From Alphaproteobacteria bacterium (GTDB lineage Bacteria; Pseudomonadota; Alphaproteobacteria; Rhodobacterales; Rhodobacteraceae), in assembly GCA_030425185.1 (NCBI GenBank), contig JAUIAU010000011.1, forward strand, positions 114 through 64,113: DNA of 64,000 bases. Direction: 5' to 3'. Every line of letters begins with the position of its first letter. Positions within the stretch are counted from its first letter, which is position 1. The position numbers were made by a program, and so were the translations under genes. The notes beneath the pieces are model-generated. The model did not search any database. It worked only from the letters and a program-made list of their open reading frames with translations, and was not told the origin of the DNA. Shown piece after piece: positions 15,429 through 61,717 of the stretch.

Positions 15429-15473
15429 GACGATCCTCCATGGCGACGGGCGAAGCGAAGCCGAGGAGTTCTC

Positions 15474-15560: not shown

Positions 15561-15654
15561 GGCGACGCTAACCGGGGCTCCGGGGCGCTGCAAGGGGGAA
15601 ACCGCTTGAGGCGCGGCAGGCCCGCCGCTAGACCGCCTGCGAAGGAGACCGCCG

Positions 15655-27846: not shown

Positions 27847-30297
27847 TTGGCCGATCCTGAGCCCCTCGCAGGGGTGTGGGAAGGGGATACGGCCGTGGGT
27901 GGTCTCATCAATGCTGGCGCCGTGTTCGGCGACGTGGTCGACTCCGGTCTGCCGCTCCGCGACCTCGGCGCGGCGCTGTCCGAGTCGAAGGTGCTCGCCG
28001 CCAGCGCCGATGGCAGCGGCTACGTCGTGGTCACTCTGGCCGAGGGCGGGACGCCCTCGGTGGCCGCGCTCGACACAGTGCCGCTGTCCGGTCTGCCGTC
28101 CGGTGTTCCCTCCCGGGTCACGATCGCGGGGACCGAGCATGTCGTCATCCCCGGCGCACCGGGCACTGGCTATCTGCTGTTGTCCCTGAGTGGCGACGAC
28201 GATCTGCGCATCGACTCCGGGGCCGCGCGGGCGGGGCAGAGTGCCGCGGTGGTCTCCAGTGGCGGCACATCGTTCGTCTATCTCGCGAGCGGGGACAGCG
28301 CAGGCCTGCGCCTGTTCCGGCTCGACGCCGGACAATCTGCGACCGAGATCCCGCTGGCCGGGATCGCGGCCGGCGCAACCCTGCCGCCCGGGGCCGTGCT
28401 GCTGCGGGCGGGACCGTCCGCTTCCCCCAGCCTGATCGCCGTCGATGCAGGGGCGGACACGATCCACAGCTTCCACCTCGGCCCTGACGGCATCCCGGAA
28501 CTGGCCAGCCGGATCGGCGCGGCGGACGGCCTCGGGATCAACGCCCCGCGGGCCGCGACGGCGGTCGAGGTTGCCGGAACCGCCTATCTAGTCGTCGCCT
28601 CGACCGAGAGCCACGCGCTCAGCGTGATCTCTGTCGCGGCAGACGGCCGGCTGAGCGCCACCGACCATGTGCTGTCCCAGACCGGGATCGATCTCGCCGA
28701 TGTGGGGGCGGTGACCTCCACCCTCGTGAACAGGCGCGCCGTGATCGCCGCGGCGGGGTCCGGCGGTGCGGTCTCGCTGTTCGAACTGGTGCCCGACGGC
28801 ACGCTCGTGCACCTGGCCACGCGGGCCCCCTCCCCCGACTGGCCCGCCGGCCATGTGAGCGACCTGGCGCTCAGCGTCGTCGGCAGCGAAGTGCAGCTTC
28901 TGGCCAGCTGCCCGGACCAGTCCGACAGCTACCTGCTGCGCATCCCGCTAGACACTATCGCGGCCCCGGTGACCGGGGGTGCCGGGTCAGACACCCTGAC
29001 CGGAGGGCCTGCACGCGACCTGCTCAGCGGCGGCGCCGGGAATGACACGCTGGCCGGTGGCTGGAACGACGATATCCTGATGGACGGCACAGGCAGCGAC
29101 ACGATGACCGGCGGGCTCGGGGCCGATCTGTTCGTGCTCGCCCGCGACGGGCAGAGCGACACCATCCTCGACTTCCAGCCGGGCATCGATCGGCTCGACC
29201 TGTCGCGGTGGTGGATGCTGTCGAACGCGACCCAGCTCACGATTACCCCGACGGCAGAAGGGGCCGACCTGACCTTCGGCGACGAAACGGTGCACGTCAT
29301 CAGCTACGGGCATGTCCCGCTCGGGGCGGCGGACTTTCCGACCGGCACGATCCTGAACCTGACCCGCCCGCCCCTGATGGTCGACCAGCCGGATGCCGCC
29401 CCGGCGGACTTTTCCGCGCGCGACGTCCTGATCGGCACGGCGGGACCCGACGTCCTGCGCGGCTACGGCGGGAACGACCGGCTCGAGGGTGGCGGCGGCA
29501 GCGACGAGCTGCGCGGCGGCGATAACGACGACGAGCTGATCGGCGGGGACGGCGACGACTTCGTGTTCGGGGACGGCGGCCAGGACAACATCGCGCTCGG
29601 CAACGGCGACGACGAGGGGCACGGCGGCGACGGGCACGACCAACTCGGCGGCGGCGCAGGGCGCGACATGCTGTTCGGCGATGACGGCAACGACACGCTC
29701 GGCGGCGGCCCGGATGACGACTGGATCGACGGCGGGCGTGGCAACGACGTGGCCAGCGGCGGCTACGGCGACGACATCGTGCGCGGTGGTGACGGGGACG
29801 ATACGCTGGCGGGCAGCTTTGGTGCCGATATCGTCGAGGGCGGCGCGGGCAACGACTCGCTCGGCGGCGGGGTCGGCATCGACATCCTGCGCGGCGGCGA
29901 CGGCAATGACGACGCGGGCGGCGGCGACGGCGACGACTGGCTTTACGGCGACGACGGAAACGACTTCCTCGCCGGGGGCAACGGGGACGACCGGCTGTTT
30001 GGTGGCGCGGGTGACGACAAACTGAACGGGGGTGCCGGAAACGACGTCCTGACCGGCGACGCGGGGGCCGACCAGTTCATCATCCCGGACTGGACGGCAG
30101 GCGAGACGGACCTGCTCGTCGATTTCACGAAAGGCGAGGACACCATCCGGGTCCCCTGGATCAGCGGGGCCTTCAACGCGCTCACGATCACCGATCCCGG
30201 CGACGGACAGCTGGCGATTACCCATGGCGGCCACACGATCCTGGTCGACGGCCTCGATGGCGACTGGCTCGACATCCACGACTTCCTCTTCGTCTGA
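27847..30297 (+). CDS. Large RTX (GGxGxD Ca-binding) protein with N-terminal beta-propeller-like region; start uncertain (TTG)
   Basis: Two blocks of nonapeptide repeats (about 28960-29130 and 29430-30080) with DTILDF/DLLVDF-type spacers; C-terminus typical of T1SS cargo; no Sec signal. Confidence 0.85.
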   Translation: MADPEPLAGVWEGDTAVGGLINAGAVFGDVVDSGLPLRDLGAALSESKVLAASADGSGYVVVTLAEGGTPSVAALDTVPLSGLPSGVPSRVTIAGTEHVVIPGAPGTGYLLLSLSGDDDLRIDSGAARAGQSAAVVSSGGTSFVYLASGDSAGLRLFRLDAGQSATEIPLAGIAAGATLPPGAVLLRAGPSASPSLIAVDAGADTIHSFHLGPDGIPELASRIGAADGLGINAPRAATAVEVAGTAYLVVASTESHALSVISVAADGRLSATDHVLSQTGIDLADVGAVTSTLVNRRAVIAAAGSGGAVSLFELVPDGTLVHLATRAPSPDWPAGHVSDLALSVVGSEVQLLASCPDQSDSYLLRIPLDTIAAPVTGGAGSDTLTGGPARDLLSGGAGNDTLAGGWNDDILMDGTGSDTMTGGLGADLFVLARDGQSDTILDFQPGIDRLDLSRWWMLSNATQLTITPTAEGADLTFGDETVHVISYGHVPLGAADFPTGTILNLTRPPLMVDQPDAAPADFSARDVLIGTAGPDVLRGYGGNDRLEGGGGSDELRGGDNDDELIGGDGDDFVFGDGGQDNIALGNGDDEGHGGDGHDQLGGGAGRDMLFGDDGNDTLGGGPDDDWIDGGRGNDVASGGYGDDIVRGGDGDDTLAGSFGADIVEGGAGNDSLGGGVGIDILRGGDGNDDAGGGDGDDWLYGDDGNDFLAGGNGDDRLFGGAGDDKLNGGAGNDVLTGDAGADQFIIPDWTAGETDLLVDFTKGEDTIRVPWISGAFNALTITDPGDGQLAITHGGHTILVDGLDGDWLDIHDFLFV

Positions 30298-38323: not shown

Positions 38324-39028
38324 TCAGTCGACCGCCAGCATGTAGCCCGCGCCGCGCACGGTCTGCAGGTAGCGAGGCTGCTTCGGATCGGTTTCGATCT
38401 TCCGGCGCAGGCGGGCGATCTGCACATCGACGGCGCGCTCCTGGCTCGGGTCGCCGTCCCGGTTCAGCGTCTCGACAAGCTGCGACCTGCTTAGCGCTGC
38501 GCCCGGCGACGCCGCGAAGATCCGCATCAGCGCCGTCTCGGTGGCGGTCAGGCGGATCTGCTCGCCGTCCCGCCACAGCTCGCCCTTCTCGATATCGTAG
38601 CGCACGGCGCCCAGCGTCAGTACCTTCGGGCCCAGCGCAACAGGCTCTTCGCGCGGCACGCGCCGGAGGATCGCGTTGATCCGCAGCAGCAGTTCTTTCG
38701 GCTCGAACGGCTTGCCGAGGTAATCGTCCGCCCCGGCCTCGAGACCGGCGATCCGGTCGGCGGTATCGCTGCGTGCGGTCAGCAGCAGGATCGGCGTCGT
38801 GATCTCCTGCCGGAGGCTCCGCGTCAGCGAGACACCGTCTTCCCCCGGCATCATCACGTCGAGCACGATCAGGTCGAACTCGAGACCGGCCAGCAGCCGC
38901 CGCGCCTGCGCCGCATCGCGGGCGACCGTCGCGAGGAACCCGTGCCGCATCAGGAACTTCTGCAACAGGCCCCGGATCCGCTCGTCATCGTCGACAAGCA
39001 GCAGGTGCGCCGCCGGTTCGTCGATCAC
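38324..39028 (-). CDS. petR: OmpR-family response regulator PetR
   Basis: LVDDD, LDVMMPGEDG, DDYLGKPF, VDVQIARLRRKIE, TVRGAGY. GTG start overlaps the petP stop. Confidence 0.88.
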   Translation of the reverse strand: MIDEPAAHLLLVDDDERIRGLLQKFLMRHGFLATVARDAAQARRLLAGLEFDLIVLDVMMPGEDGVSLTRSLRQEITTPILLLTARSDTADRIAGLEAGADDYLGKPFEPKELLLRINAILRRVPREEPVALGPKVLTLGAVRYDIEKGELWRDGEQIRLTATETALMRIFAASPGAALSRSQLVETLNRDGDPSQERAVDVQIARLRRKIETDPKQPRYLQTVRGAGYMLAVD

Positions 39029-39537
39029 GACGGGCCCCCGTCGCTGAGCGCGTTGAACTGGCGGCGGCATTCCGGGTCCATCATCTGTTCGAGCACGGTG
39101 CGGAACCCTGCCACGGCCTCGGGCCCGGCGGCCCGGAACGCCGCCCGCATCCGGCCCCGTTGCGCCTCGGACAGCGCGCGCTCCAGCGTCTCGCCGGCCT
39201 CGGTCAGGCGCAGGTGCCGCTCGCGCTTGTCCTTGTTGCCGACCTTCGCTTCCACCAGCCCGTCCTCGACCAGGGTCCGAAGCACGCGGTTCAGCGACTG
39301 CTTGGTGACACCGAGAATGGTCAGCAAATTGTTCACCGTCGTGCCCGGGGCACGGTTGATGAAATGCAACGCCCTGTGATGGGCGCGCCCGTAGCCCTTC
39401 TCGGCCAGGATGCGGTCCGGATCGGCGGTGAACCCGCGATAGGCGAAGAACATCGCCTCGATCCCCTTGCGCAACTGATCGTCGGTCAGAAACAGAAGGC
39501 TCTCGCCCCGCGTCACGACCTGCGCCGTCTCTGCCAT
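39025..39537 (-). CDS. petP: MarR-family transcriptional regulator PetP
   Basis: LFLTDDQLRKGIEAMFFAYRGF, GRAHHRA, TKQSLNRVL winged helix; divergent from ilvE. Confidence 0.88.
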   Translation of the reverse strand: MAETAQVVTRGESLLFLTDDQLRKGIEAMFFAYRGFTADPDRILAEKGYGRAHHRALHFINRAPGTTVNNLLTILGVTKQSLNRVLRTLVEDGLVEAKVGNKDKRERHLRLTEAGETLERALSEAQRGRMRAAFRAAGPEAVAGFRTVLEQMMDPECRRQFNALSDGGPS

Positions 39538-39577
39538 GCGCCCGGCCCCCTGCCCTTCGTACTCCACCTTTCGGTAG

Positions 39578-39600
39578 TTTATGTCAGCCTTGTTGACTTT
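39578..39600. promoter_or_regulatory. Palindromic operator GTCAG-N5-TTGAC between petP and ilvE
   Basis: TTTATGTCAGCCTTGTTGACTTT. The right half doubles as a -35 (TTGACT), with TATCGA 17 bp downstream toward ilvE. The same motif recurs at 52342, 53946 and 54020. Confidence 0.6.
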
Positions 39601-39702
39601 CCAAGACCTGATTGGTATCGAATCGCGGCTTGCACGAAAGATTGTGTCCGATGTGGACCTAGATCGCGCAACAAACGTAAAACGGCTGGAAGGGACCGAG
39701 AC

Positions 39703-40572
39703 ATGGCTGGCAGCTACGCAGACCGCGACGGCACGATCTGGATGGACGGCAAACTGGTGCCGTGGCGCGACGCGAACGTGCACATCCTGACCCACGCCAT
39801 GCACTACGCCTCGTCGGTGTTCGAGGGCGAGCGCGCCTACAACGGCAAGATCTTCGAAAGCCGCCGCCACTCCGAGCGCCTGCTCGCCTCCGGCCGGATG
39901 CTCGACATGGAGATCCCGTGGACCGTGGACGAGATCGAGACCGCGAAATACGAGGTCATGAAGGCCAACAACCTGACCGACGCCTATGTCCGGGCCGTGG
40001 CCTGGCGCGGCGCGGGCGAGGACATGGGCGTCTCGTCCGCCCGCAACCCTGTTCGCCTCGCAGTCGCGACCTGGGGCTGGGGCAACTACTACGGCGACGC
40101 CAAGATGAAGGGCGCGAAGCTCGACATCTCGAAGTGGAAGCGCCCCTCGCCCGAGACCATCCCGGTCCACGCCAAGGCCGCCGGTCTCTACATGATCTGC
40201 ACCATGTCCAAGCACACGGCCGAAGCGAAGGGATGCTCGGACGCGCTGTTCATGGATTACCGCGGCTACGTGGCCGAGGCGACCGGTGCCAACATCTTCT
40301 TCGTCAGGGACGGCGACGTGCACACGCCGATGGCGGACTGCTTCCTGAACGGGATTACCCGCCAGACCGTGATCGGGATGCTGAAGGAGCGCCAGATCAC
40401 CGTCCACGAGCGCCACATCGAACCGGCCGAGATGGAGAGCTTCCAGCAGTGCTGGCTCACCGGCACCGCCGCCGAGGTCACGCCGGTCGGCCAGATCGGC
40501 GACTACACCTTCGAGGTGGGCGCGCTGACCCGCGATGTCTCGGAAAGCTACGAGAAGCTCGTCAGGAGCTGA
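39703..40572 (+). CDS. ilvE: Branched-chain amino acid aminotransferase
   Basis: HAMHYASSVFEGERAY, HAKAAGLY (PLP Lys), EATGANIF, LNGITRQT, TGTAAEVTP. Confidence 0.95.
   Translation: MAGSYADRDGTIWMDGKLVPWRDANVHILTHAMHYASSVFEGERAYNGKIFESRRHSERLLASGRMLDMEIPWTVDEIETAKYEVMKANNLTDAYVRAVAWRGAGEDMGVSSARNPVRLAVATWGWGNYYGDAKMKGAKLDISKWKRPSPETIPVHAKAAGLYMICTMSKHTAEAKGCSDALFMDYRGYVAEATGANIFFVRDGDVHTPMADCFLNGITRQTVIGMLKERQITVHERHIEPAEMESFQQCWLTGTAAEVTPVGQIGDYTFEVGALTRDVSESYEKLVRS

Positions 40573-47739: not shown

Positions 47740-47743
<4 letters not shown>
46928..47743 (-). CDS. mtgA: Monofunctional peptidoglycan transglycosylase
   Basis: AAEDAKFCDHWGFD, GASTLSQQVVKN, RKGIE, ILEVYLNVAEFG GT51 motifs; start uncertain. 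Confidence 0.92.
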
Positions 47744-52278
<4,535 letters not shown>

Positions 52279-52340
52279 GTCTCTCTCCTTCCCGAAGAGT
52301 CCCCGGTGTCCGGGGCACTTGTCCCTTCCGCCGCGATCCG

Positions 52341-52357
52341 GGTCAGCGGGGCTGACC
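52341..52357. promoter_or_regulatory. Palindromic operator GGTCAG-N5-CTGACC upstream of gltB
   Basis: GGTCAGCGGGGCTGACC, perfect 6-bp arms, ~63 bp upstream of the gltB ATG. Confidence 0.5.
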
Positions 52358-52405
52358 AATGGGGGACGCGGCGGTGTCGCTGCCCGGCAATTTGCTGCGG
52401 TGCAG

Positions 52406-52446
52406 TACCGACGTGATACCGACGTGATACCGACGTCCTGCCGACG
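52406..52446 (+). repeat. 11-bp tandem repeat TACCGACGTGA x2.8 plus degenerate CCGACG
   Basis: Units at 52406-52416, 52417-52427, 52428-52436; extra CCGACG at 52441. Confidence 0.9.
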
Positions 52447-52457
52447 CCGGTTTCACC

Positions 52458-53891
52458 TTATTCTGCGGCCACGACCGCGTTTTTCTGCAGCGCAGCGAGG
52501 ATGGCCTCGGCCGCCTCGCGCCCGTCGCGGATCGCCCAGACCACAAGGCTCGCGCCGCGCACGATATCCCCGGCCGCGTAGACCCCCGGCAGGTTCGTCT
52601 CGTGGGTGCGGAAATTGGCCTTGATGGTGCCCCAGCGGGTCACTTCCAGCTCGGGCACGCCCCAGAGGCTCGGCAGCGGCTCGGGCTCGAAGCCCAGCGC
52701 CTTGATCACCAGGTCGGCGGGCTCGACGTAGTCGGCACCGGGGATTTCCTCCGGCATCTGCCGCCCGGTCGCGTCCGGTTCGCCCAGCTTCATGCGCTGG
52801 ACATGGACGCCGTCGACCGGATCGCCCGAAAAGCCCTTTGGCGCCGAAAGCCAGACGAATTCCACGCCCTCTTCCTCGGCGTTCTGCACCTCGCGCTGGC
52901 TGCCCGGCATGTTGGCCCGGTCCCGGCGATACAGGCATTTGACGCTGGTCGCGCCCTGCCGGATCGCGGTGCGCACGCAGTCCATCGCGGTGTCGCCGCC
53001 GCCGATGACGACGACGCGCTTGCCCTCGGCGTTCAGTTCCCCGGAGGTGAATTCCGGCACATCGTCGCCGAAGCCGACCCGGTTCGAGGCGGTCAGGTAG
53101 TCGATCGCCCGCACGATGCCGGCCGCCCCCGCGCCCGGCCCGCCGAGGTCGCGCGACTTGTAGACCCCGGTCGCGATGACCACGAAGTCATGCTTGGCGC
53201 GCAGGTCGGCGAACGAGATATCCTCGCCCACGCTGCAGTTCAGCTGCATCGCGACGCCGCCCGCTTCCAGCTGCGCCATGCGGGCCATCACCACGTCCTT
53301 CTCCAGCTTGAAGCCGGGGATGCCGTAGGTCAGCAGGCCGCCGCCACGGTCATAGCGGTCGTAGACGGTGACCTGCAGACCGGCGCGGCGCAGCATGTCG
53401 GCCGCCGCCAGCCCGCCCGGACCGGCGCCGATGATGCCGACGCTCTCGGGCCGCTCGACCGACGGGGTGATCGGCTTGACCCAGCCCTCCTCCCAGGCGG
53501 TGTCGGTGATGTATTTCTCGACCGAGCCGATGGTGACCGTGCCGTGGCCAGACTGCTCGATCACGCAGTTGCCCTCGCACAGCCGGTCCTGCGGGCAGAT
53601 GCGGCCGCAGATCTCGGGGAAGGTGTTGGTGGCCTGGCTGATCTCGTAGGCTTCCTGCAGCCGCCCCTCGGCGGTCAGCTTCAGCCAGTCCGGGATGTTG
53701 TTGTGCAGCGGGCAGTGCGACTGGCAGTAGGGCACGCCACACTGGCTGCACCGCCCGGCCTGCTCGGCCGCCTTCTCGCGGGCATACTCCGCGTAGATTT
53801 CCTGGAAGTCCTTTGAGCGCGCCTCGGCCGCCCGCTTCTCGGGCATCTCCTTGGCCACCGTCACGAACCTGAGCATCTTCTGCGTCGCCAT
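52458..53891 (-). CDS. gltD: Glutamate synthase small subunit
   Basis: CSQCGVPYCQSHCP, GRICPQDRLCEGNC, IGAGPGG, IGGGDTAMDC, AGDIVRGASLVV. Confidence 0.97.
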   Translation of the reverse strand: MATQKMLRFVTVAKEMPEKRAAEARSKDFQEIYAEYAREKAAEQAGRCSQCGVPYCQSHCPLHNNIPDWLKLTAEGRLQEAYEISQATNTFPEICGRICPQDRLCEGNCVIEQSGHGTVTIGSVEKYITDTAWEEGWVKPITPSVERPESVGIIGAGPGGLAAADMLRRAGLQVTVYDRYDRGGGLLTYGIPGFKLEKDVVMARMAQLEAGGVAMQLNCSVGEDISFADLRAKHDFVVIATGVYKSRDLGGPGAGAAGIVRAIDYLTASNRVGFGDDVPEFTSGELNAEGKRVVVIGGGDTAMDCVRTAIRQGATSVKCLYRRDRANMPGSQREVQNAEEEGVEFVWLSAPKGFSGDPVDGVHVQRMKLGEPDATGRQMPEEIPGADYVEPADLVIKALGFEPEPLPSLWGVPELEVTRWGTIKANFRTHETNLPGVYAAGDIVRGASLVVWAIRDGREAAEAILAALQKNAVVAAE

Positions 53892-53940
53892 AGCCGCTCC
53901 CAATTTCTGTCGCGTCCATTTACAGTCAGACCAGGTCAAA

Positions 53941-54039
53941 GAAAAGTCAGGCACACTGACCTAAATCAAGTATTCCTCGCGCTCCACCGACCGGCCGCCG
54001 CCGAAATTGTGGATTTTATGTCAATCATACTGACCTTAT
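53941..54039. promoter_or_regulatory. Two GTCA(G/A)-N5-CTGAC palindromes in the gltD/uppP divergent region
   Basis: AAAAGTCAGGCACACTGACCTAAA (core 53946-53960) and TTTTATGTCAATCATACTGACCTT (core 54020-54034). The latter contains TTGACA on the gltD strand. Confidence 0.6.
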
Positions 54040-54104: not shown

Positions 54105-54908
54105 ATGACCCTCTTCCATCTCCTCATGCTGGCCGTGATCCAGGGGATCACGGAATTCCTGCCCATCTCCTCGTCCGGGCACCTTATCCTCTACCCGCTG
54201 CTCACCGGCGCTCCCGACCAGGGGCTCGCCATAGACGTGGCCGTGCATGTCGGCACCCTGGGGGCAGTGATCTTCTACTTCTGGTCCGACGTGTCCCGGG
54301 CCCTGGCCGGACTGCCGAAGCTGTTGCGCTGGCAGATCGACGACCAGGGCGCATGGCTGGCGCTGTGCCTCGTCGTGGCAACGATCCCGGTGGTCTTGGC
54401 CGGTCTCCTTCTCAAGCTGAGCGGGCTCGACGTCATGATGCGTTCGGTCGCGGTGATCGGCTGGACCATGCTGATCTTCGGCATCGTGCTTTGGTGGGCA
54501 GACCAGCAGTTCGACCATGTGCGGACCGCCGAGCAGTGGACGCTGAAGCACGCGATCATCCTCGGCCTCTGGCAGGTCATCGCGCTGATTCCGGGCACCT
54601 CGCGCTCGGGCATCACGATCACCGGCGCGCGGGTTCTGGGTTACAAGCGCGAGGACGCGGCGCGGCTGTCGATGCTGATGTCGATCCCGACCATTCTCGC
54701 GTCCGGGGTCCTGCTCGGGGCCGATGTCGTCGGACAGGCCGATGTCGCGATGCTGCGCGATGGCGTGATCGGGGCGGCCTTCGCCTTTGTCGCGGCCTAT
54801 GTCGCGCTGTCGCTGATGATGCGGTTCCTCAAGGTCTACAGCTACACGCCCTACGTGATCTACCGCGTAATCCTCGGCGCCGTGCTGCTGGTCATCGCCT
54901 ATACCTGA
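54105..54908 (+). CDS. uppP: Undecaprenyl-diphosphate phosphatase
   Basis: QGITEFLPISSSGH, HVGTLGAV, PGTSRSGITI motifs. Confidence 0.96.
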   Translation: MTLFHLLMLAVIQGITEFLPISSSGHLILYPLLTGAPDQGLAIDVAVHVGTLGAVIFYFWSDVSRALAGLPKLLRWQIDDQGAWLALCLVVATIPVVLAGLLLKLSGLDVMMRSVAVIGWTMLIFGIVLWWADQQFDHVRTAEQWTLKHAIILGLWQVIALIPGTSRSGITITGARVLGYKREDAARLSMLMSIPTILASGVLLGADVVGQADVAMLRDGVIGAAFAFVAAYVALSLMMRFLKVYSYTPYVIYRVILGAVLLVIAYT

Positions 54909-56111: not shown

Positions 56112-56198
56112 GCCCAGGTGGCGGAATTGGTAGACGCGCTGGTTTCAGGTACCAGTGGCCGAAAGGTCGTGGAGGTTCGAGTCCTCTCCTGGGCACCA
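56112..56198 (+). tRNA. tRNA-Leu (anticodon CAG)
   Basis: Acceptor GCCCAGG/CCTGGGC-ACCA, D-loop GGAATTGGTAGAC, anticodon stem CTGGT/ACCAG with loop TTCAGGT, long variable arm, GGTTCGAGTCC T-arm. Confidence 0.98.
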
Positions 56199-56240: not shown

Positions 56241-56852
56241 GTGACCCACACCCTGCACCATCGCGACCTTCCGGACGGGCTCGACCTCGGCCCGGTCGTT
56301 GCCATCGACACCGAAACCATGGGGCTGAACCCGCACCGCGACCGGCTGTGCGTGGTGCAGCTGTCGTCCGGCGACGGAACCGCCCATCTCGTCCAGATCG
56401 AGAAGGGGCAGACCGAGGCCCCGAACCTGTGTCGCATGCTGACCGATCCGGCGGTCCTCAAGCTGTTCCACTACGGGCGCTTCGACATCGCGGTGCTTCT
56501 CAAGGCCTTCGGCGTGCTGACCGCGCCGGTCTACTGCACCAAGATCGCCTCGAAACTGGTCCGGACCTACACCGACCGCCACGGGCTGAAGGTGCTTCTG
56601 CAGGAGGTGCTCGACGTAGACATCTCGAAGCAGCAGCAGTCCAGTGACTGGGGCGCGGCCAAGCTGACCCCGGCGCAGGTGGAGTATGCAGCCTCCGACG
56701 TGCTGTACCTGCACCGGCTGCGCGAAGCACTCGACGGCATGCTGGCGCGCGAGGACCGGACCGCCGTGGCCGCGTCGTGCTTCGCGTTCCTGCCGACGCG
56801 GGCCAAGCTGGACCTGATGGGCTGGCCCGACCTCGACATCTTCTCGCATTGA
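56241..56852 (+). CDS. Ribonuclease D-like 3'-5' exonuclease (DEDDy)
   Basis: AIDTETMGL, FHYGRFD, CTKIASKL, YAASDVLYL; GTG start after GGGAGG SD. Confidence 0.9.
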   Translation: MTHTLHHRDLPDGLDLGPVVAIDTETMGLNPHRDRLCVVQLSSGDGTAHLVQIEKGQTEAPNLCRMLTDPAVLKLFHYGRFDIAVLLKAFGVLTAPVYCTKIASKLVRTYTDRHGLKVLLQEVLDVDISKQQQSSDWGAAKLTPAQVEYAASDVLYLHRLREALDGMLAREDRTAVAASCFAFLPTRAKLDLMGWPDLDIFSH

Positions 56853-56866
56853 CGGGTCACCCGGAC

Positions 56867-57832
56867 ATGGTCGATCCCGCCAGCCTTCTGTCCACTGCGC
56901 GCCGGGTGATCGGCACCGAGGCGGCCGCGCTGGGTCAGCTGGCGGCGGCGCTGGACGACAGCTTCGTTCGGACGGTCGAGGCGATTCTTGCCTCGAAGGG
57001 TCGCGTCATCGTTTCGGGCATGGGAAAGTCGGGACATATCGCGCGCAAGATGGCGGCAACGCTGTCCTCGACCGGAACGCCTGCGCATTTCGTGCACCCG
57101 GCCGAGGCCAGCCACGGCGACCTCGGCATGATGCGTCCCGGCGATGTCGTGGTCGTTCTGTCGAACTCCGGCGAGACGCCGGAACTGGCCGATGTCATCG
57201 CCTACACGCGTCGGTTCAAGATCACCCTGATCGGCGTCGCCAGCCGGCCCGACAGCACGCTGCTGCGGCAGGCGGATGTGGCGCTGGTCCTTCCGAACGC
57301 CGAGGAAGCCTGCGGCGAGGGAATCGTGCCGACCACGTCGACCACGATGACGCTGGCCCTCGGGGATGCGCTGGCCATCGCCCTGATGGAGCACCGCCGG
57401 TTCAGCCCGGACGATTTCCGCGACTTCCACCCGGGCGGCAAGCTCGGCGCGCGACTCAGCAAGGTCGGGGACCTGATGCATGGCGGCGACGAGGTGCCGC
57501 TGATCCCGGTGAGCACTCCGATGACCGAGGCGCTCCTGGTGATCTCGAAGAAGGGCTTCGGCGTCGTCGGCGTGACCGAGGACGGCAAGCTGGTGGGCAT
57601 CATCACCGACGGCGACTTGCGCCGGCACATGGACGGCCTGCTCGGCCGGACGGCGGGCGCGGTGATGACGCGCGGCCCCAAGACGATCCGTCCCGAGGCG
57701 CTGGCCGCCGAGGCGCTGGCCATCATGAACGAGCGGAAGATCACCTCGCTCTTCGTGCAGGATCCCGGCCCCGAGGCGCGGCCGCTCGGCATCCTGCACA
57801 TTCACGACTGCCTGCGCGCCGGGGTCGCCTGA
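56867..57832 (+). CDS. kdsD: Arabinose 5-phosphate isomerase (KpsF/GutQ family, SIS plus CBS domains)
   Basis: GMGKSGHIARK, HPAEASHGDLG, SNSGETPE, PTTSTT, FHPGGKLG, ITDGDLRR. Confidence 0.93.
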   Translation: MVDPASLLSTARRVIGTEAAALGQLAAALDDSFVRTVEAILASKGRVIVSGMGKSGHIARKMAATLSSTGTPAHFVHPAEASHGDLGMMRPGDVVVVLSNSGETPELADVIAYTRRFKITLIGVASRPDSTLLRQADVALVLPNAEEACGEGIVPTTSTTMTLALGDALAIALMEHRRFSPDDFRDFHPGGKLGARLSKVGDLMHGGDEVPLIPVSTPMTEALLVISKKGFGVVGVTEDGKLVGIITDGDLRRHMDGLLGRTAGAVMTRGPKTIRPEALAAEALAIMNERKITSLFVQDPGPEARPLGILHIHDCLRAGVA

Positions 57833-57835
57833 GCC

Positions 57836-58450
57836 GTGGCGGACAGGTCAGGCCGCTACACGACCTTCGTGACCACGGCAAAGATCGTGCTGCCTCTGGT
57901 GGCGCTCGGCCTGCTGGCGAGCCTGTTCCTGTTCTCGGGCGTGCAGCGCGACATTCGGGAGCTGCCCTATTCCGAAAGCGAAATCGCCGAGATCATCACC
58001 GGCCAACGGCTGAGTGCGCCACAGTACCGCGGAACGCTGGAGAGCGGCGACGTGATCGCGGTGACGGCCGACAGCGCCGCGCCGTCCCCGGAAGACCGGC
58101 AGACGATTCTTGCCGAGACCGTCTCTGCCCGGGTCGATCGCAGCGACGGCGAGACCATCGAGATGACCGCGCCGCGGGGCGGACTGGACCAGACCGCCCG
58201 GACCGCCTTCGCGGAGGGCGGCATCGTGCTGACGACATCCGAAGGCTACGAATTGCGCGCCCCGCGCGGGACCGCCGCCATCGATGGTCTCGATGTCAGC
58301 GCGGAGGGCCTGGTCGTCGTGCTCGGACCGGGGCTGAGGCTGGAAGCCGGCGCGATGCATCTGAGCGGATCCGGACCGGGAACCGAGCAAGTGGTTTTCA
58401 CGGGCGGGATAAAACTGCTATATCGCCCGCGGGATGCCGACCGGCCCTGA
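57836..58450 (+). CDS. lptC: LPS export protein LptC-like
   Basis: N-terminal TM (KIVLPLVALGLLASLFL) followed by a beta-jellyroll pattern; lies between kdsD and lptA. Confidence 0.75.
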   Translation: MADRSGRYTTFVTTAKIVLPLVALGLLASLFLFSGVQRDIRELPYSESEIAEIITGQRLSAPQYRGTLESGDVIAVTADSAAPSPEDRQTILAETVSARVDRSDGETIEMTAPRGGLDQTARTAFAEGGIVLTTSEGYELRAPRGTAAIDGLDVSAEGLVVVLGPGLRLEAGAMHLSGSGPGTEQVVFTGGIKLLYRPRDADRP

Positions 58451-58484
58451 GGGACGCGGCCAGCCGAGAGAGAGACCTGCGCCG

Positions 58485-58994
58485 ATGCCTTTGCGTTCCC
58501 TGACTGCCCTGTGTCTGGTTCTCTGGTCGGGAGCAGCGCTTGCCCAAGGCACGGCGATCGAACTCGGCACGACCCCGGTCAACCCCGATGCCCCGATCGA
58601 GATCACGGCGGACAGCCTGTCTGTGGACCGGGAAGCCGGGTTCGCGATCTTCACCGGGAACGTGCGCGTCGTGCAGGAGCAGATGACCCTGTCCGCCGAC
58701 GTGATCGAGGTTCGCTATACCGAGGCCGACAAGGCGCAGCCCGGCGAGGAAGGCAGCGTCGACCAGGTCGACGCGAAGGGCAACGTCATCTTCATCAACG
58801 GCGAGGACGTGGCCGAGTCGGACAATGCGGTGCTGACCCCCCGCGACGACCGCGTGGTGATGACCGGGAACGTCCTGCTGACCCAGGGCCCGACCGTGAT
58901 CGCGGGCGAGCGCATGGTCTTCAACCTCGCCACCGGGGAGGGGCGCATGGAAGGACGGGTCCGCGCGGTCTTCCGGCCGGGCGGCTCGGAATGA
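58485..58994 (+). CDS. lptA: LPS transport periplasmic protein LptA
   Basis: Signal peptide; PIEITADSLSVD, FTGNVRVVQ, MTGNVLLTQG. Confidence 0.85.
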   Translation: MPLRSLTALCLVLWSGAALAQGTAIELGTTPVNPDAPIEITADSLSVDREAGFAIFTGNVRVVQEQMTLSADVIEVRYTEADKAQPGEEGSVDQVDAKGNVIFINGEDVAESDNAVLTPRDDRVVMTGNVLLTQGPTVIAGERMVFNLATGEGRMEGRVRAVFRPGGSE

Positions 58995-59749
58995 GCGGTC
59001 CGCAGCTCAGCCTCGCCGAGACCAAGACAGGGCTGGTCGTCCGAAACCTGCGCAAGAGCTACAAGCGGCGCCCGGTCATCCGCGACGTCTCCATGTACCT
59101 CGCACGCGGCGAGGTGGTCGCGCTGCTGGGGCCGAACGGCTCGGGCAAGACCACCTGCTTCTACTCGATTGCCGGCCTGGTGACCCCCGAAGGCGGCGTA
59201 GTCGAGATCGACGGACGCGACGCCACGCAACTGCCGATGTACCGCCGGGCCCGGCTCGGGATCGGCTATCTCCCGCAGGAGATGTCGATCTTCCGCGGCC
59301 TGTCGGTCGAGGACAACATCGCCGCGATCCTCGAGATCGCCGTGTCCGATCGCAGCGTGCGGCGCGACCGGCTGGAAACCCTTCTGTCGGAATTCTCGAT
59401 CGAGCACTTGCGCCGGGCGCCGGCACTGGCCCTGTCAGGGGGCGAGCGTCGCCGGGTCGAGATTGCCCGCTGCCTCGCGGCCGATCCGAAGTACCTGCTG
59501 CTCGACGAACCGTTCGCGGGCGTCGACCCGATCGCGGTCGGTGAGATTCGCGGGCTGGTCTCGGACCTGAAGACGCGCGGCATCGGCGTTCTGATCACCG
59601 ACCACAACGTCCGCGAGACGCTCGACATCGTGGACCGCGCCTATATCCTGCACGACGGCAAGGTTCTGATGAGCGGCACCACCGACGAGGTGGTGCGCGA
59701 CGAGAACGTGCGGCGGGTCTACCTGGGACAGAACTTCCGGGTATCCTGA
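58991..59749 (+). CDS. lptB: LPS export ABC transporter ATP-binding protein
   Basis: GPNGSGKTT, GYLPQE, LSGGERRR, LLDEPFAGVDP, ITDHNVRET. Confidence 0.96.
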   Translation: MSGPQLSLAETKTGLVVRNLRKSYKRRPVIRDVSMYLARGEVVALLGPNGSGKTTCFYSIAGLVTPEGGVVEIDGRDATQLPMYRRARLGIGYLPQEMSIFRGLSVEDNIAAILEIAVSDRSVRRDRLETLLSEFSIEHLRRAPALALSGGERRRVEIARCLAADPKYLLLDEPFAGVDPIAVGEIRGLVSDLKTRGIGVLITDHNVRETLDIVDRAYILHDGKVLMSGTTDEVVRDENVRRVYLGQNFRVS

Positions 59750-59767
59750 CGCGCGGGGAGGCACGGC

Positions 59768-61042
59768 ATGGCGGCAGCCACCGGTCTGCACCTCAAGGCG
59801 CGCGGCAACCAGCGCCTGTCCCGGGAGATGATGCAGGGCATGGCGATCCTCGCCCGTCCCGCCGCGACACTCCGCGCCGAACTCGAAGCCGCGATGCTGG
59901 AGAACCCCGCCCTCGACCTGGCCGAGCCGATGTCGCAGGGCTTCGGCGACGGCGCGACCGACAAGATCAAGGCCGACCCCGACCTGGGCAGCCTTCTGCG
60001 CGATCAGCTGCGGCTGGAGCGCTTGTCCCCCGCCGTCCTGCGCGCCGCGCGGACAATCACCTGGGCGCTCGACGACAGGGGCTGGCTGGACATGGATCTG
60101 GCCGAGATCGCGACGCTGGCCGCCACCAGCCCGGAGGAGGCCGCCGCCGGTCTGGCCGCCGTGCAGGCCTGTCAGCCCGCCGGTGTCGCCGCCCGGGACC
60201 TGCCCGAATGCCTGGCGCTGCAACTCGTCGCCGGGGGCGAGGACCCGACCGTGGCCCGGGCCGCGGCGGCCTGCCTGCCGGACCTTGTCGCCGGGCACTG
60301 GAAGCGGGCGTCCGATACCAGCGGACTGGACACCGCTACCCTGAAACGCCTTGCGGCGCTCCTGCCCGCGCTGACCGCCGCGCCGGGCGCAGGCTTCGGA
60401 GCGGCCGCGCGGGCCCTGCTGCCGGATCTGGTCGTGCGGGTCGAGGCGGACGGCACACTGACCGTCGGCCTGAAGCGCGGTGTCCTGCCCAACCTGCGCC
60501 TGCACCCCGGCCTGCCGGACGACGGGAGGCTGGCCGAGGCGCGGCGCGAAGCCGAGGGTCTGATTCGGGCACTCAGCTTCCGCCGCAGCACGCTTCTGCG
60601 GGTGGGCGCGGCGGTGGTCGAGCACCAGCGTGCCTGGCTGACCGGCGCTTCCGACGCCTTGGTTCCGCTGGAACGACAGACTGTCGCCGCCGAGCTTGGC
60701 CTGCACCCGTCGACAGTCGGACGGGCCGTGCAGGACAAGGCGATTGACACGCCGCACGGCGTCATGCCCCTGTCGGCCCTGTTCCCCGGAACCCTTGACC
60801 GCACCGGGGACGGGCCGAGCGTGCACGCTGTCCAGCAGCGCATCGCCCGGCTGATCGCCGCCGAGACCGGCGGCCGGGTCCTGTCGGATTCCGAGATCGC
60901 GGCCCGTCTGTCCGAGGAGGGCGTTGACATCGCGCGGCGAACTGTCGCCAAATATCGGGGATGTCTGAGCATCCCGCCCTCGCATGTCCGCAAACGCCGG
61001 AAGGCCTTGCGGAGCCTTGGCGGCGAACCCGTGGGTGTCTGA
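59768..61042 (+). CDS. rpoN: RNA polymerase sigma-54 factor
   Basis: LENPAL, VAARDLPECL, HTH VAAELGLHPSTVGRAV, RpoN box ARRTVAKYR; canonical lptB-rpoN-hpf-ptsN position. Confidence 0.9.
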   Translation: MAAATGLHLKARGNQRLSREMMQGMAILARPAATLRAELEAAMLENPALDLAEPMSQGFGDGATDKIKADPDLGSLLRDQLRLERLSPAVLRAARTITWALDDRGWLDMDLAEIATLAATSPEEAAAGLAAVQACQPAGVAARDLPECLALQLVAGGEDPTVARAAAACLPDLVAGHWKRASDTSGLDTATLKRLAALLPALTAAPGAGFGAAARALLPDLVVRVEADGTLTVGLKRGVLPNLRLHPGLPDDGRLAEARREAEGLIRALSFRRSTLLRVGAAVVEHQRAWLTGASDALVPLERQTVAAELGLHPSTVGRAVQDKAIDTPHGVMPLSALFPGTLDRTGDGPSVHAVQQRIARLIAAETGGRVLSDSEIAARLSEEGVDIARRTVAKYRGCLSIPPSHVRKRRKALRSLGGEPVGV

Positions 61043-61116
61043 CCGTTTCCCCCCTGTTTACAGAGTGTTAGCGCAGGCACCCAGAGGTTCAGGATAGGCG
61101 TCCAAAGGAGGCACAA

Positions 61117-61692
61117 GTGCGCTATCAAATCACCGGAAAACAGATCGACATCGGCGAAGCCCTGCAGACGCATGTGAAGCAGGAAATGGATGAGGTCGTG
61201 GCGAAATACGCCGAACGTCCCACCGACGCCAATGTGGTCTTCTCGCGGACCGCCCACGAGCATGTCTGCGAAGCCACTGTCCATCTCTCGACCGGGCTGA
61301 CGGCACAGGCGACCGGGAATGCCCCGGATATCTACGCCGCCTTCGAGAAGTGCAACGAGCGGCTCGAGAAGCAATTGCGCCGCTACAAGCGCCGCCTCAA
61401 GAACCACCATCGCGAGCGCGCGGAGCCCGTTGCGCTCTTCGGGGCATCCTCGTATATCCTCGCCTCTGGCGGCGACGAAGAGGCATCGGAACCGGAGTCG
61501 CTGCAACCGATGATCATTGCCGAGATGGAGAGCCGGATTCCGGAAATCTCGGTCGGCGAAGCGGTCATGCAAATGGAATTGGCGGGGTCACAGTTGCTGG
61601 TCTTCCGAAACGAGCGACACGGCGGGATCAACGTGGTCCACCGGCGTGACGACGGCAACATCGGCTGGATTGATCCCCGGCTGAACAGCTGA
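61117..61692 (+). CDS. hpf: Ribosome hibernation promoting factor (long HPF/RaiA)
   Basis: GKQIDIGEALQ, EKQLRRYKRRLK, C-terminal GGINVVHRRDDGNIGWID; GTG start after AGGAGG. Confidence 0.93.
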   Translation: MRYQITGKQIDIGEALQTHVKQEMDEVVAKYAERPTDANVVFSRTAHEHVCEATVHLSTGLTAQATGNAPDIYAAFEKCNERLEKQLRRYKRRLKNHHRERAEPVALFGASSYILASGGDEEASEPESLQPMIIAEMESRIPEISVGEAVMQMELAGSQLLVFRNERHGGINVVHRRDDGNIGWIDPRLNS

Positions 61693-61717
61693 CAGCCGCG
61701 ACAACGGGACTGGCAAC

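What the first reader, a model, noticed from the sequence alone, without database searches (positions are those of the whole stretch)
39578..39600. Shared palindrome defines a candidate PetP (MarR) regulon: ilvE, petPR, gltD, gltB
Seen: GTCA(G/A)-N5-(C/T)TGAC occurs four times in intergenic DNA. The sites are 39583-39597 (TTTAT GTCAG CCTTG TTGAC TTT), 52342-52356, 53946-53960 (reverse TTTAG GTCAG TGTGC CTGAC TTT) and 54020-54034 (TTTAT GTCAA TCATA CTGAC CTT). Three also share TTTA/TT flanks. A rough uniform-base expectation is about 0.25 hits per 64 kb; coding regions were not scanned exhaustively. Here the site overlaps the ilvE -35. Established: MarR proteins bind palindromes in their own divergent promoters, and IlvE uses glutamate made by GltBD as amino donor. 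Inference: PetP coordinates glutamate synthesis with branched-chain transamination, a regulon I do not recognise as described.
Basis: partly seen in the sequence, partly recalled or inferred. Interest (0 to 1): 0.78.

Follow-up and report, generated by a model that had tools for sequence, protein, structure and literature searches.

The report
PetP operator shared by ilvE and gltD
A short DNA palindrome is a conserved operator that travels with the MarR-type regulator gene petP across several orders of Alphaproteobacteria, and in the Rhodobacterales it also sits in front of the glutamate synthase operon, so one little-studied regulator probably links branched-chain amino acid transamination to glutamate supply.

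Summary
GTCAR-N5-YTGAC occurs 5 times in the window against 0.15 expected. Four copies are intergenic, at the stated coordinates. The fifth (28986) lies inside an RTX-repeat gene.

The petP/ilvE copy is identical in core in 15 of 15 Rhodobacterales loci. It fills the 17-bp spacer of a predicted petP promoter and overlaps the predicted ilvE -35.

The gltD-proximal copy is within one mismatch of the core in 48 of 55 genera and shows no RNA covariation.

Nine contexts (eight sequenced) of 48-51% identical PetP-like genes, from Sphingomonadales-like and Rhodospirillales-like bacteria, all pair the MarR gene with a divergent ilvE. None has petR. Seven of the eight carry the same palindrome within one mismatch, the eighth with two, always straddling the MarR start codon.

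This makes PetP the likely binder, with autoregulation plus ilvE control as the ancestral role and gltD(B) as a Rhodobacterales addition.

New here is a companion palindrome, GTCCG-N3-CGGAC. It sits exactly 62-63 bp from the operator at ilvE and 73-74 bp from it at gltD, which is 6 and 7 helical turns.

The gltD-gltB spacer copy may instead be an RNA hairpin. Binding, ligand and the sign of regulation are untested. No paper found describes this regulon.

The parts
39583..39597 (.). Operator A1: GTCAGCCTTGTTGAC, between petP and ilvE
   Evidence: Exact match. The core is identical in 15/15 aligned Rhodobacterales petP-ilvE spacers. It is retained upstream of petP in L072, where ilvE is not the neighbour. 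The same palindrome lies at the 5' end of PetP-like genes of other orders.
39593..39621 (+). Predicted ilvE promoter: -35 TTGACT (39593-39598), 17-nt spacer, -10 TATCGA (39616-39621)
   Evidence: TTGAC and the G.TA of the -10 are conserved columns. This is a prediction by consensus only; the strict sigma-70 scan found nothing.
39576..39604 (-). Predicted petP promoter: -35 TTGGAA (39604-39599), 17-nt spacer that contains the whole palindrome, -10 TAAACT (39581-39576)
   Evidence: The conserved flanks TTCCAAG and A..TTA of the alignment read as these hexamers on the minus strand. This is inference.
39646..39658 (.). Companion palindrome B (degenerate here): GTCCGATGTGGAC, in the predicted ilvE leader, centre 62 bp from A1
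   Evidence: GTCCG-N3-CGGAC(CTA) is conserved in 15 loci at 62-63 bp from A1. There is no RNA covariation.
39025..39537 (-). petP, a MarR-family regulator (170 aa)
   Evidence: Pfam MarR_2 scores 49.5 bits against a cut-off of 27. Relatives 78-82% identical are named 'HTH-type transcriptional regulator PetP' by their sources. PDB matches are all MarR family.
38324..39070 (-). petR, an OmpR-family response regulator; the ORF overlaps the petP 3' end and its true start is uncertain
   Evidence: Response_reg plus Trans_reg_C; NCBIfam OmpR-like. petP-petR adjacency is seen in 12 related loci and in L090.
39703..40572 (+). ilvE, branched-chain amino acid aminotransferase
   Evidence: NCBIfam equivalog NF005726 scores 511 bits against a cut-off of 396. 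The same equivalog matched the two neighbours of distant PetP-like genes that were scanned.
53946..53960 (.). Operator A2: GTCAGGCACACTGAC (reverse TTTAGGTCAGTGTGCCTGACTTTT), gltD-proximal
   Evidence: Consensus aAtaTAGGTCAGtA.t..TGACTTTTcTTt in 55 genera. The core is within one mismatch in 48/55. Substitutions are uncompensated, with no covariation.
53917..53945 (-). Predicted gltD promoter: -35 TTTTCT (53945-53940), 17-nt spacer, -10 TAAATG (53922-53917); the operator abuts the -35, with its centre about -43
   Evidence: A conserved TA lies 27 nt after TGAC in the alignment. This is inference; no TSS data are available.
54020..54034 (.). Operator A3: GTCAATCATACTGAC, 74 bp from A2; it occupies the place that holds palindrome B in most genera
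   Evidence: The distance between the gltD-proximal operator and the upstream B-type site is 73-75 bp in 30 loci, and the window's own A3-A2 distance is 74 bp. The element persists where uppP is not the divergent neighbour (L023, L045).
52342..52356 (.). Copy A4: GTCAGCGGGGCTGAC in the gltD-gltB spacer, 64 nt before the gltB ATG; operator or RNA hairpin
   Evidence: An exact copy lies 60-120 nt after the gltD stop in 17/78 loci. It folds as a strong hairpin (-18.6 kcal/mol, z -2.6). Compensated variants occur in L034 and L008.
47740..53891 (-). gltD (52458-53891) and gltB (47740-52278), glutamate synthase small and large subunits
   Evidence: NCBIfam TIGR01318 scores 527 bits and NF008730 scores 1682 bits.
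54105..54908 (+). uppP (undecaprenyl-diphosphate phosphatase), divergent neighbour of gltD; a possible but unproven additional target
   Evidence: NF001393 scores 340 bits. The divergent arrangement holds in most of the 80 loci.
28986..29000 (.). Fifth exact match, inside an RTX-repeat gene; not part of the system

Best explanation
GTCAR-N5-YTGAC, with A/T-rich flanks (roughly ATAyGTCAr-N5-yTGACrTAT), is the operator of the PetP family of MarR-type winged-helix regulators.

A PetP dimer bound at 39583-39597 would sit inside the 17-bp spacer of the petP(-petR) promoter and on the -35 of the divergent ilvE promoter. It would therefore repress its own operon and the branched-chain aminotransferase gene until an unknown ligand releases it.

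This petP-ilvE divergent pair with its operator is ancestral in Alphaproteobacteria.

In Rhodobacterales the same operator was additionally recruited next to the weak -35 of the gltD(B) promoter (53946-53960). There it always works together with a second palindromic site 73-74 bp upstream. That second site is type B (GTCCG-N3-CGGAC) in most genera and a second A-type copy (54020-54034) in this genome. At ilvE the partner lies 62-63 bp away. Both distances are whole numbers of helical turns, so the two sites face the same side of the DNA and probably act cooperatively.

The effect is to couple glutamate synthesis (GOGAT) to the main glutamate-consuming transamination of branched-chain amino acid synthesis.

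Shown: the sequences, their conservation, their positions, and the linkage to petP.

Inferred: that PetP binds, the promoter hexamers, repression versus activation, cooperativity, and the ligand.
For: (1) Enrichment: 5 matches against 0.15 expected in the window. Across 1.79 Mb of relatives there are 65 against about 5.8, with 54 in the same orthologous places. A PWM built from the gltD sites scores highly only at gltD upstream, petP/ilvE, the spacer after gltD and the uppP-proximal place.

(2) Conservation while the surroundings diverge: 15/15 at petP/ilvE, and 48/55 within one mismatch at gltD.

(3) The sites act as DNA, not RNA. As a hairpin, the gltD site shows no covariation (475 of 500 shuffles are as good, and 12 to 24 sequences break pairs uncompensated). 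Predicted folds are weak (z -0.6 to -1.4).

(4) Linkage to PetP:
- The site lies in petP's own predicted promoter spacer.
- It stays with petP in L072, where ilvE is replaced by another gene.
- In all 9 contexts (8 with DNA) of 48-51% identical PetP-like genes from Sphingomonas, Pedomonas and marine Rhodospirillaceae-like bacteria, the MarR gene is divergent from an Aminotran_4 gene. Two of these neighbours were scanned and fall in the same NF005726 ilvE equivalog. None of the 9 has petR.
- In 7 of the 8 sequenced loci a GTCAA-N5-CTGAC palindrome within one mismatch straddles the MarR start codon; the eighth, L084, has two mismatches. In the six loci with an exact or one-mismatch CTGCC copy it is the only relaxed-pattern match in the 8-20 kb fetched.

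(5) Protein-level footprint of that overlap: 116 of 120 proteins of the P0146 group start M-x-D or contain VNMxD.

(6) PetP is a MarR-family protein. From memory, MexR binds GTTGA-N5-TCAAC, which has the same 5-N5-5 geometry.

(7) The spacing between the paired sites is fixed: 73-75 bp in 30 loci at gltD and 62-63 bp in 15 loci at ilvE, with non-conserved sequence between them at gltD.
Against: - There is no binding, expression or transcription-start data. RNA runs for this organism do not exist, and metatranscriptome contigs laid on a relative were uninformative.
- The promoter hexamers are weak consensus matches, and the strict scan found none.
- All gltD evidence comes from a single order, in which every genome examined also has PetP. 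Co-occurrence therefore cannot discriminate PetP from a paralogue or from an unlinked factor with the same specificity.
- The companion palindrome B has a different inner base (GTCC rather than GTCA) and a spacing 2 bp shorter. A rigid MarR dimer would not be expected to accept this, so a second protein may be involved.
- The gltD-gltB copy behaves more like an RNA hairpin.
Confidence: 0.6

Rival explanations
1. An unlinked global regulator binds the palindrome at ilvE and gltD, and its position next to petP is incidental. Candidates would be an Lrp/AsnC-type or other nitrogen or amino-acid regulator, or a PetP paralogue.
For: In E. coli (textbook knowledge) Lrp controls both gltBD and ilv genes, so a shared amino-acid regulator is a natural expectation. 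No binding data tie PetP to the site. The gltD sites are known only from Rhodobacterales.
Against: The palindrome follows PetP-like genes into other orders and shifts position with the gene, overlapping its start codon, while nothing else in the spacer is conserved. It also stays with petP when ilvE is absent. The motif does not resemble the A/T-rich Lrp consensus. No AsnC/Lrp gene was found among the window genes that were scanned.
Confidence: 0.15
2. PetR, the OmpR-family response regulator co-transcribed with petP in Rhodobacterales, binds one or both palindromes. In particular it could bind type B, which was seen only in Rhodobacterales. PetP and PetR would then co-regulate ilvE and gltD from phased sites.
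For: The petP-petR operon fusion and the type B palindrome are both seen only in the Rhodobacterales loci (against 52-67). The fixed 6- and 7-turn spacing suggests two proteins touching. From memory, some OmpR-family proteins such as CusR and HprR bind inverted repeats.
Against: - Type A clearly does not need petR, since it is present where petR is absent.
- Type B is missing upstream of petP-petR in L072, where ilvE is not adjacent, so B goes with the metabolic targets rather than with petR.
- At the gltD-upstream place, N7, N8 and N9 variants replace each other between genera, which argues for one protein.
- OmpR-family sites are usually direct repeats; for example, CenR binds TGA-N8-TGA (PMC9275681).
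Confidence: 0.15
3. The palindromes are RNA hairpins (attenuators, terminators, or processing or stability elements) rather than protein operators.
For: The consensus scan flags 53944-53962 as terminator-like. The 52342 copy folds strongly (-18.6 kcal/mol, z -2.6) and lies 15-30 nt before the next ribosome-binding site. It shows doubly compensated variants: L034 has GTCGC-N5-GCGAC and L008 has GTCAC-N5-GTGAC.
Against: For the promoter copies there is no covariation and the folds are weak or absent. The 54020 copy does not fold as the palindrome. A1 lies upstream of the predicted ilvE start. Rfam finds nothing there. The idea stays open only for the gltD-gltB spacer copy, where I put it at roughly 40%.
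Confidence: 0.1

Closest known systems
MarR-family autoregulated repressors with palindromic operators in divergent promoters (MarR/marO, OhrR, and especially MexR, whose sites contain GTTGA-N5-TCAAC; recalled from memory)
   Same: The protein is a winged-helix MarR-family member. The site is an inverted repeat of two pentamers separated by 5 bp. It lies in the regulator's own promoter and overlaps the promoter of a divergent gene.
   Different: The targets are central nitrogen and amino-acid metabolism genes (ilvE, gltDB), not efflux, oxidative-stress or aromatic catabolism genes. The operator is paired with a second palindrome at a fixed whole number of helical turns. No ligand is known.
PetP of Rhodobacter capsulatus (Tokito and Daldal 1992, cited in PMC1233412 and PMC9603854)
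   Same: The window protein is 78-82% identical to proteins whose sources name them PetP, and it is followed by petR.
   Different: PetP and PetR were named for their position upstream of the cytochrome bc1 genes. Here no bc1 genes are adjacent. The conserved partner across orders is ilvE, not petR or petABC. No operator or regulon was found in the literature searched.
Lrp regulon of Escherichia coli (gltBD, ilvIH and others; textbook knowledge)
   Same: The physiological logic is the same: one regulator ties glutamate synthase to branched-chain amino acid metabolism.
   Different: The protein family differs (AsnC/Lrp against MarR), as does the DNA motif. Lrp acts far upstream of gltBD through multiple A/T-rich sites.
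CenR of Rhodobacter sphaeroides (PMC9275681)
   Same: It is an essential OmpR-family regulator of Rhodobacterales with a ChIP-defined motif containing TGAC-like half-sites.
   Different: The CenR motif is a direct repeat, TGA-N8-TGA. gltD, ilvE and uppP are not in its published regulon. PetR is the orthologue of Caulobacter CC2931, not of CenR (CC3743).

Membership tests
MarR-family regulator with autoregulatory palindromic operator | The protein has a MarR-type winged helix-turn-helix domain | tested here: met
   Pfam MarR_2 scores 49.5 bits (cut-off 27) and MarR 27.6 bits (cut-off 24.6). All 13 PDB sequence matches are MarR or SlyA family.
MarR-family regulator with autoregulatory palindromic operator | An inverted-repeat site lies in the regulator's own 5' region and is conserved among orthologues | tested here: met
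   15/15 Rhodobacterales loci and L072. Of 8 sequenced loci from other orders, 7 carry it within one mismatch and 1 carries it with two.
MarR-family regulator with autoregulatory palindromic operator | The site overlaps the -35/-10 or transcription start of its own gene and/or a divergent gene | tested here: inconclusive
   The conserved flanks read as -35/-10 hexamers on both strands, but the strict sigma-70 scan finds no promoter and no TSS data could be obtained.
MarR-family regulator with autoregulatory palindromic operator | The dimer binds the site directly and a ligand or oxidation releases it | not testable with these tools
   This needs EMSA or footprinting and ligand screening.
PetP/PetR locus of Rhodobacter capsulatus | A PetP orthologue is followed by the response regulator gene petR | tested here: met
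PetP/PetR locus of Rhodobacter capsulatus | The locus lies directly upstream of the cytochrome bc1 operon (petABC/fbcFBC) | tested here: not met
   The genes beyond petR in the window are an unassigned 330-aa ORF and a WsaF-like glycosyltransferase. This is a feature of the original locus, not of the protein family.
Lrp/AsnC-type control of gltBD and ilv genes | An A/T-rich 15-bp Lrp-type consensus and a linked AsnC-family protein | tested here: not met
   The motif core is GTCAG/CTGAC. No AsnC-family gene was found among the window proteins that were scanned. A genome-wide check was not possible.
CenR (OmpR-family) regulon | A direct repeat TGA-N8-TGA upstream of the -35 | tested here: not met
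   The conserved sites are inverted repeats. CenR's Table 1 lacks gltD, ilvE and uppP. PetR is not CenR.
Intrinsic terminator or structured RNA leader | A stem maintained by compensatory changes (for a terminator, followed by a U-run) | tested here: not met
   For A2 and B, covariation is no better than in shuffles, and there is no Rfam match. For the 52342 copy the result is inconclusive: a strong fold with no U-run and a few compensated variants.

The most novel reading that the evidence does not exclude
PetP is not a bc1-related factor. It is the conserved alphaproteobacterial regulator of ilvE, and in Rhodobacterales it has become a regulator of amino-group flow.

It would work through bipartite operators: an A site plus a second A- or B-type palindrome exactly 6 or 7 helical turns away. 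These would be bridged into a small DNA loop, either by PetP oligomers that tolerate 7-9 bp between GTC and GAC, or by PetP together with a second protein such as PetR.

If PetR is the partner, this would wire an essential two-component regulator into glutamate and branched-chain amino acid metabolism.
Probability: 0.3. Interest if true: 0.72.

Novelty: new member of a known kind. Interest (0 to 1): 0.6.

Why it matters
PetP has carried a name since 1992 without a function, an operator or a target. The data here give all three as testable predictions: a defined operator, a conserved primary target (ilvE) across at least three alphaproteobacterial lineages, and a lineage-specific extension to glutamate synthase.

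Glutamate synthase is the main entry point of nitrogen in the abundant marine Roseobacter group, and its transcriptional control there is, as far as I could find, undescribed.

The strictly phased pair of palindromes offers a compact system for studying cooperative or looping control by a MarR-family protein.

In other orders the operator overlaps the start codon. This explains a conserved M-x-D N-terminus, and it explains why gene callers produce 'YVNMADI'-type false N-terminal extensions.

Tried and rejected
- **CenR.** I suspected PetR was CenR and that the TGAC repeats upstream of gltD were CenR sites. Rejected: the CenR motif is a direct repeat and its regulon lacks these genes, and Skerker et al. 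separate the PetR orthologue (CC2931) from CenR (CC3743).
- **Iron regulators.** Irr box (TTTRGAAYNRTTCYAAA), Iron-Rhodo-box, RirA box (TGA-N9-TCA) and IscR. The motifs differ, and gltBD and ilvE are not mentioned in that paper.
- **Sigma-54 promoter.** By eye, the GG-N10-GC spacing does not fit.
- **CRP/FNR-type site.** The half-site spacing is off by one.
- **Rfam.** Only a TPP riboswitch and a tRNA, both elsewhere in the window.
- **Terminator reading of 53946.** Flagged by the scan but rejected on covariation and energy.
- **Transcription-start mapping from public RNA.** The window's organism is known only from metagenomes. There were no RNA runs for L002. Metatranscriptome contigs laid on L006 gave no usable 5' ends. 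A locus obtained by protein look-up could not be sent to the run search.
- **More regulon members.** The PWM and regular-expression scans of 1.86 Mb found none beyond single unconfirmed cases (L052 22244, L067 3198).
- **Metagenome pattern scan.** Not used, because a pattern of 14-16 specified bases would return hundreds to thousands of chance matches.

Full report
**Observation.** The pattern GTCARNNNNNYTGAC matches five times in the 64-kb window: at 28986, 39583, 52342, 53946 and 54020. Dinucleotide-preserving shuffles give 0.15 on average, and none of 100 reached five.
- 39583-39597 lies between petP (MarR family, 39025-39537, minus strand, followed by the OmpR-type gene petR) and ilvE (39703-40572; NCBIfam equivalog NF005726, 511 bits).
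- 52342-52356 lies between gltD and gltB.
- 53946-53960 and 54020-54034 lie between gltD (52458-53891, minus strand) and uppP (54105-54908).

With two mismatches allowed the count is at chance (31 against 34), so only near-perfect copies carry signal.

**Conservation at gltD.** A scan of one genome per species with GltB returned 80 loci from many Rhodobacterales genera, 80-85% identical in GltB, with 10 kb on either side. The window's own organism is known only from metagenomes.

In 55 aligned uppP-gltD spacers almost nothing is alignable except two islands. The gltD-proximal island is aAtaTAGGTCAGtA.t..TGACTTTTcTTt. The core is exact in 18 spacers and within one mismatch in 48 of 55.

A conserved TA lies 27 nt after TGAC. 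Read as a -10 hexamer (TAAATG, 53922-53917, in the window), it implies a weak -35 (TTTTCT) directly abutting the palindrome, whose centre would be near -43. These promoter assignments are inference; the strict consensus scan finds none.

**Conservation at petP/ilvE.** In 15 spacers the consensus is A..TTAyGTCAGCcTTGTTGACwTTCCAAGA....A..G.TAg.
- On the plus strand this reads as TTGACw, 17 nt, TAnC.
- On the minus strand the conserved flanks read as TTGGAA, 17 nt, TAAnnT. This is a petP promoter whose entire spacer is the palindrome.

That geometry is the classic one for an autoregulated repressor.

**DNA site or RNA hairpin.** The terminator scan flags the gltD-proximal copy. However, counted as a 7-pair stem over 54 distinct sequences, pairing and covariation are no better than in column shuffles (475 of 500 shuffles pair as well). 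Between 12 and 24 sequences break individual pairs without compensation. The predicted folds of the promoter copies are weak (z -0.6 to -1.4), and the 54020 copy does not fold as the palindrome at all. Rfam has no match there. These copies therefore behave as protein-binding DNA.

**Who binds.** The first idea, that PetR equals CenR, failed.
- The CenR motif in R. sphaeroides is a direct repeat, TGA-N8-TGA, and its regulon lacks gltD, ilvE and uppP (PMC9275681).
- Skerker et al. identify the PetR orthologue as CC2931, distinct from CenR, which is CC3743 (PMC1233412).
- Iron-related boxes do not fit either (PMC1698941).

The decisive evidence came from distant relatives of PetP. A search of 50%-identity representatives showed a large family with the signature ELLFFAYRDFT...GFGRAHHR. 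Two members, 48-51% identical to the window protein, led to Sphingomonas and Pedomonas proteins and to marine Rhodospirillaceae-like proteins.

In all nine genomic contexts fetched (eight with DNA), the MarR gene is divergent from a class IV aminotransferase gene. Two of these neighbours were scanned, and both fall in the same ilvE equivalog as the window's gene. None of the nine has petR.

In every sequenced case a palindrome of the same kind straddles the MarR start codon:

| Locus | Palindrome at the start codon | Core fit |
|---|---|---|
| L082, L083 | GTCAACATGGCTGAC | exact |
| L085 | GTCAACATGACTGAC | exact |
| L086 | GTCAACATGTCTGAC | exact |
| L087 | GTCAATATGACTGAC | exact |
| L088 | GTCAATATGGCTGAC | exact |
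| L089 | GTCAACATGACTGAC | exact |
| L081 | GTCAACATGCCTGCC | one mismatch |
| L084 | GTCAATATGACTGTC | two mismatches |

In the six loci with an exact or CTGCC copy, this is the only relaxed-pattern match in the 8-20 kb fetched. L087 has one further relaxed match and L084 matched no pattern used. For comparison, the Rhodobacterales operator read in the petP direction is GTCAACAAGGCTGAC.

The overlap is visible even at protein level. Of 120 proteins in the second group, 116 begin M-x-D or contain VNMxD.

Within Rhodobacterales, Rubellimicrobium (L072) has petP-petR next to an acetyltransferase gene instead of ilvE, and it still carries GTCAGCCCTGTTGAC upstream of petP.

So the palindrome follows the PetP family across orders, and across a change of position relative to the gene, while the rest of the spacer is unrelated. 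By the usual logic of comparative regulon reconstruction this assigns the motif to PetP. It also makes ilvE, not petR or the bc1 genes, the ancestral partner.

PetP is a bona fide MarR-family protein. The 5-N5-5 inverted repeat has a precedent in MexR sites, which I recall from memory.

**A second element.** It is GTCCG-N3-CGGAC flanked by TA...CTAAA, which I call type B. The same element lies in the predicted ilvE leader; in the window it is degenerate, GTCCGATGTGGAC at 39646-39658.
- Its outer half-site (TTTAGGTCCG) resembles that of the operator (TTTAGGTCAG).
- The arms are 2 bp closer together.
- In some genera the same position holds N8 or N9 versions. The window's 54020 copy is the N9 version.
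- As an RNA stem it shows no covariation.

Its distance to the operator is fixed: 73-75 bp in 30 gltD loci and 62-63 bp in 15 ilvE loci. These are seven and six helical turns. At gltD the intervening sequence is not conserved. The pair also persists where uppP is not the divergent neighbour (L023 and L045).

I read this as a bipartite operator whose two parts lie on the same face of the DNA. Whether PetP itself, PetR or another protein binds type B cannot be decided here.
- The interchange of N7, N8 and N9 versions favours one protein.
- The different inner base, the shorter spacing and the restriction to Rhodobacterales favour a second protein.
- Type B is absent upstream of petP in L072, so it goes with the metabolic targets rather than with petP-petR.

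**The gltD-gltB copy.** An exact copy lies 60-120 nt after the gltD stop in 17 of 78 loci, 15-30 nt before the ribosome-binding site of the next gene. That gene is gltB or an inserted small gene.
- The flanks are G+C-rich, and the PWM built with A/T flanks scores this copy low.
- In the window it forms a 7-bp G+C-rich hairpin (-18.6 kcal/mol, z -2.6).
- Two genera have doubly compensated versions, L034 (GTCGC-N5-GCGAC) and L008 (GTCAC-N5-GTGAC). Others keep only the CTGACC arm.

It may be a weak third operator or an mRNA hairpin. I leave it open at roughly even odds.

**Scope of the regulon.** In 1.86 Mb (the window plus the 80 loci), high-scoring sites occur only at the places above. The eleven other exact matches in the loci are at background density. 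Four of them are a single conserved site downstream of mtgA that was assumed, not checked, to be coding. Whole genomes could not be scanned, so the full regulon is unknown. Likewise unknown is whether gltD carries the site outside Rhodobacterales.

**Mechanism proposed.** PetP dimers occupy the operator. They repress petP(-petR) and ilvE by sitting in the promoter spacer and on the -35. At gltD they bind next to a weak -35 together with the phased upstream site. Either repression or class II-type activation is possible there. A metabolite would modulate binding; plausible candidates are a branched-chain amino or oxo acid, glutamate, glutamine or 2-oxoglutarate. That would match glutamate production by GOGAT to its use by IlvE.

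The steps shown are the sequences, their conservation, the phasing and the linkage to petP. Binding, the sign of regulation, the ligand and looping are inferred.

**Comparison and novelty.** This is an ordinary kind of system: a MarR-family regulator with a palindromic operator in a divergent promoter. What is new is the content.
- PetP receives an operator, a target and a role.
- The Rhodobacterales extension to glutamate synthase is functionally analogous to Lrp control in E. coli but uses an unrelated protein.
- The strictly phased second palindrome is unusual for the family.

Literature searches for PetP, for MarR with ilvE, and for gltD and ilvE regulons in Rhodobacter found nothing describing it. 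That is not proof of absence, because many subscription papers are not in the library searched.

Noticed in passing
window 52406-52436 (array), within the gltD-gltB spacer 52279-52457: A tandem array with an 11-nt period (TACCGACGTGA x2.8, 100% matches) lies just after the gltD stop. Other Rhodobacterales have 3-4 copies of an 11-nt unit at the same place, but the unit is lineage-specific (GTCGGTA, GTGCAC/GTACAC, TGTACAA, GTATGG). Strong self-similarity appears in 8 of 76 loci, always at lag 11-12, and in none of the shuffled controls. Its function is unknown. One helical turn per unit suggests phased protein binding.
   Followed up: partly
window 39646-39658; L001-L080 upstream of gltD and in ilvE leaders: A second conserved palindrome, GTCCG-N3-CGGAC(CTA), lies at a fixed 62-63 bp (ilvE) or 73-74 bp (gltD) from the main operator. 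Its core CCG-N3-CGG is nearly invariant, and it shows no RNA covariation. The protein that binds it is unknown.
   Followed up: yes
window 39630-39680; alignment: In the ilvE leader of related genera, the type B palindrome is flanked by conserved TTTTTGCGCAAC and GCGCAACAA..G.AAA blocks (TTGCGCAA is itself a palindrome). In the window these blocks are partly degenerate (GCTTGCACGAAAG and TCGCGCAACAAACG).
   Followed up: no
L081-L089, start codons of PetP-like genes: Outside Rhodobacterales the operator straddles the regulator's ATG (TATGTCAAyATGnCTGACATA). This fixes codons 2-3 as x-Asp: 116 of 120 proteins in one group start M-x-D or contain VNMxD. It also yields 'YVNMADI' pseudo-extensions when gene callers start upstream. 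A -10-like TATAAG or TATATG box immediately precedes the operator, which suggests leaderless or near-leaderless mRNAs.
   Followed up: partly
window 15463-15563 (-) and 56112-56195 (+): A TPP riboswitch (72.9 bits) and a tRNA gene are the only Rfam gathering-level matches in the window.
   Followed up: no
window 27847-30297: An 816-aa protein with RTX calcium-binding nonapeptide repeats. The GSDTLTGG repeat coding sequence produces the fifth exact match to the palindrome.
   Followed up: yes
window 56777-62182: A cluster of a SIS/CBS-domain gene (kdsD-like), an LptA/LptD_N-domain gene (lptA-like), rpoN, hpf and ptsN (EIIA-Ntr). The nitrogen-PTS and sigma-54 genes thus lie 6-8 kb from the gltDB operon.
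   Followed up: no
L052 22244; L067 3198: Isolated exact palindromes. One (GTCAACCAATCTGAC) lies upstream of a gene assigned to the histone-deacetylase family by eye, 2 kb beyond petR in a Rhodobacter species. The other is a perfect GTCAACCCTGTTGAC in Roseovarius albus. Both are single cases and are not conserved in the sample.
   Followed up: partly
L086 192-8987: In one non-Rhodobacterales locus, the ilvE/PetP-like pair lies next to a second MarR gene with a histidine kinase and a receiver gene, and to a 1551-aa NAD-specific glutamate dehydrogenase gene. No palindrome was found near them.
   Followed up: no
window 39025-39070: The longest petR ORF overlaps the 3' end of petP by 46 nt. In a Dinoroseobacter relative, petR (237 aa) starts at the petP stop codon. 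The true window start is therefore probably near 39037, which implies translational coupling.
   Followed up: no
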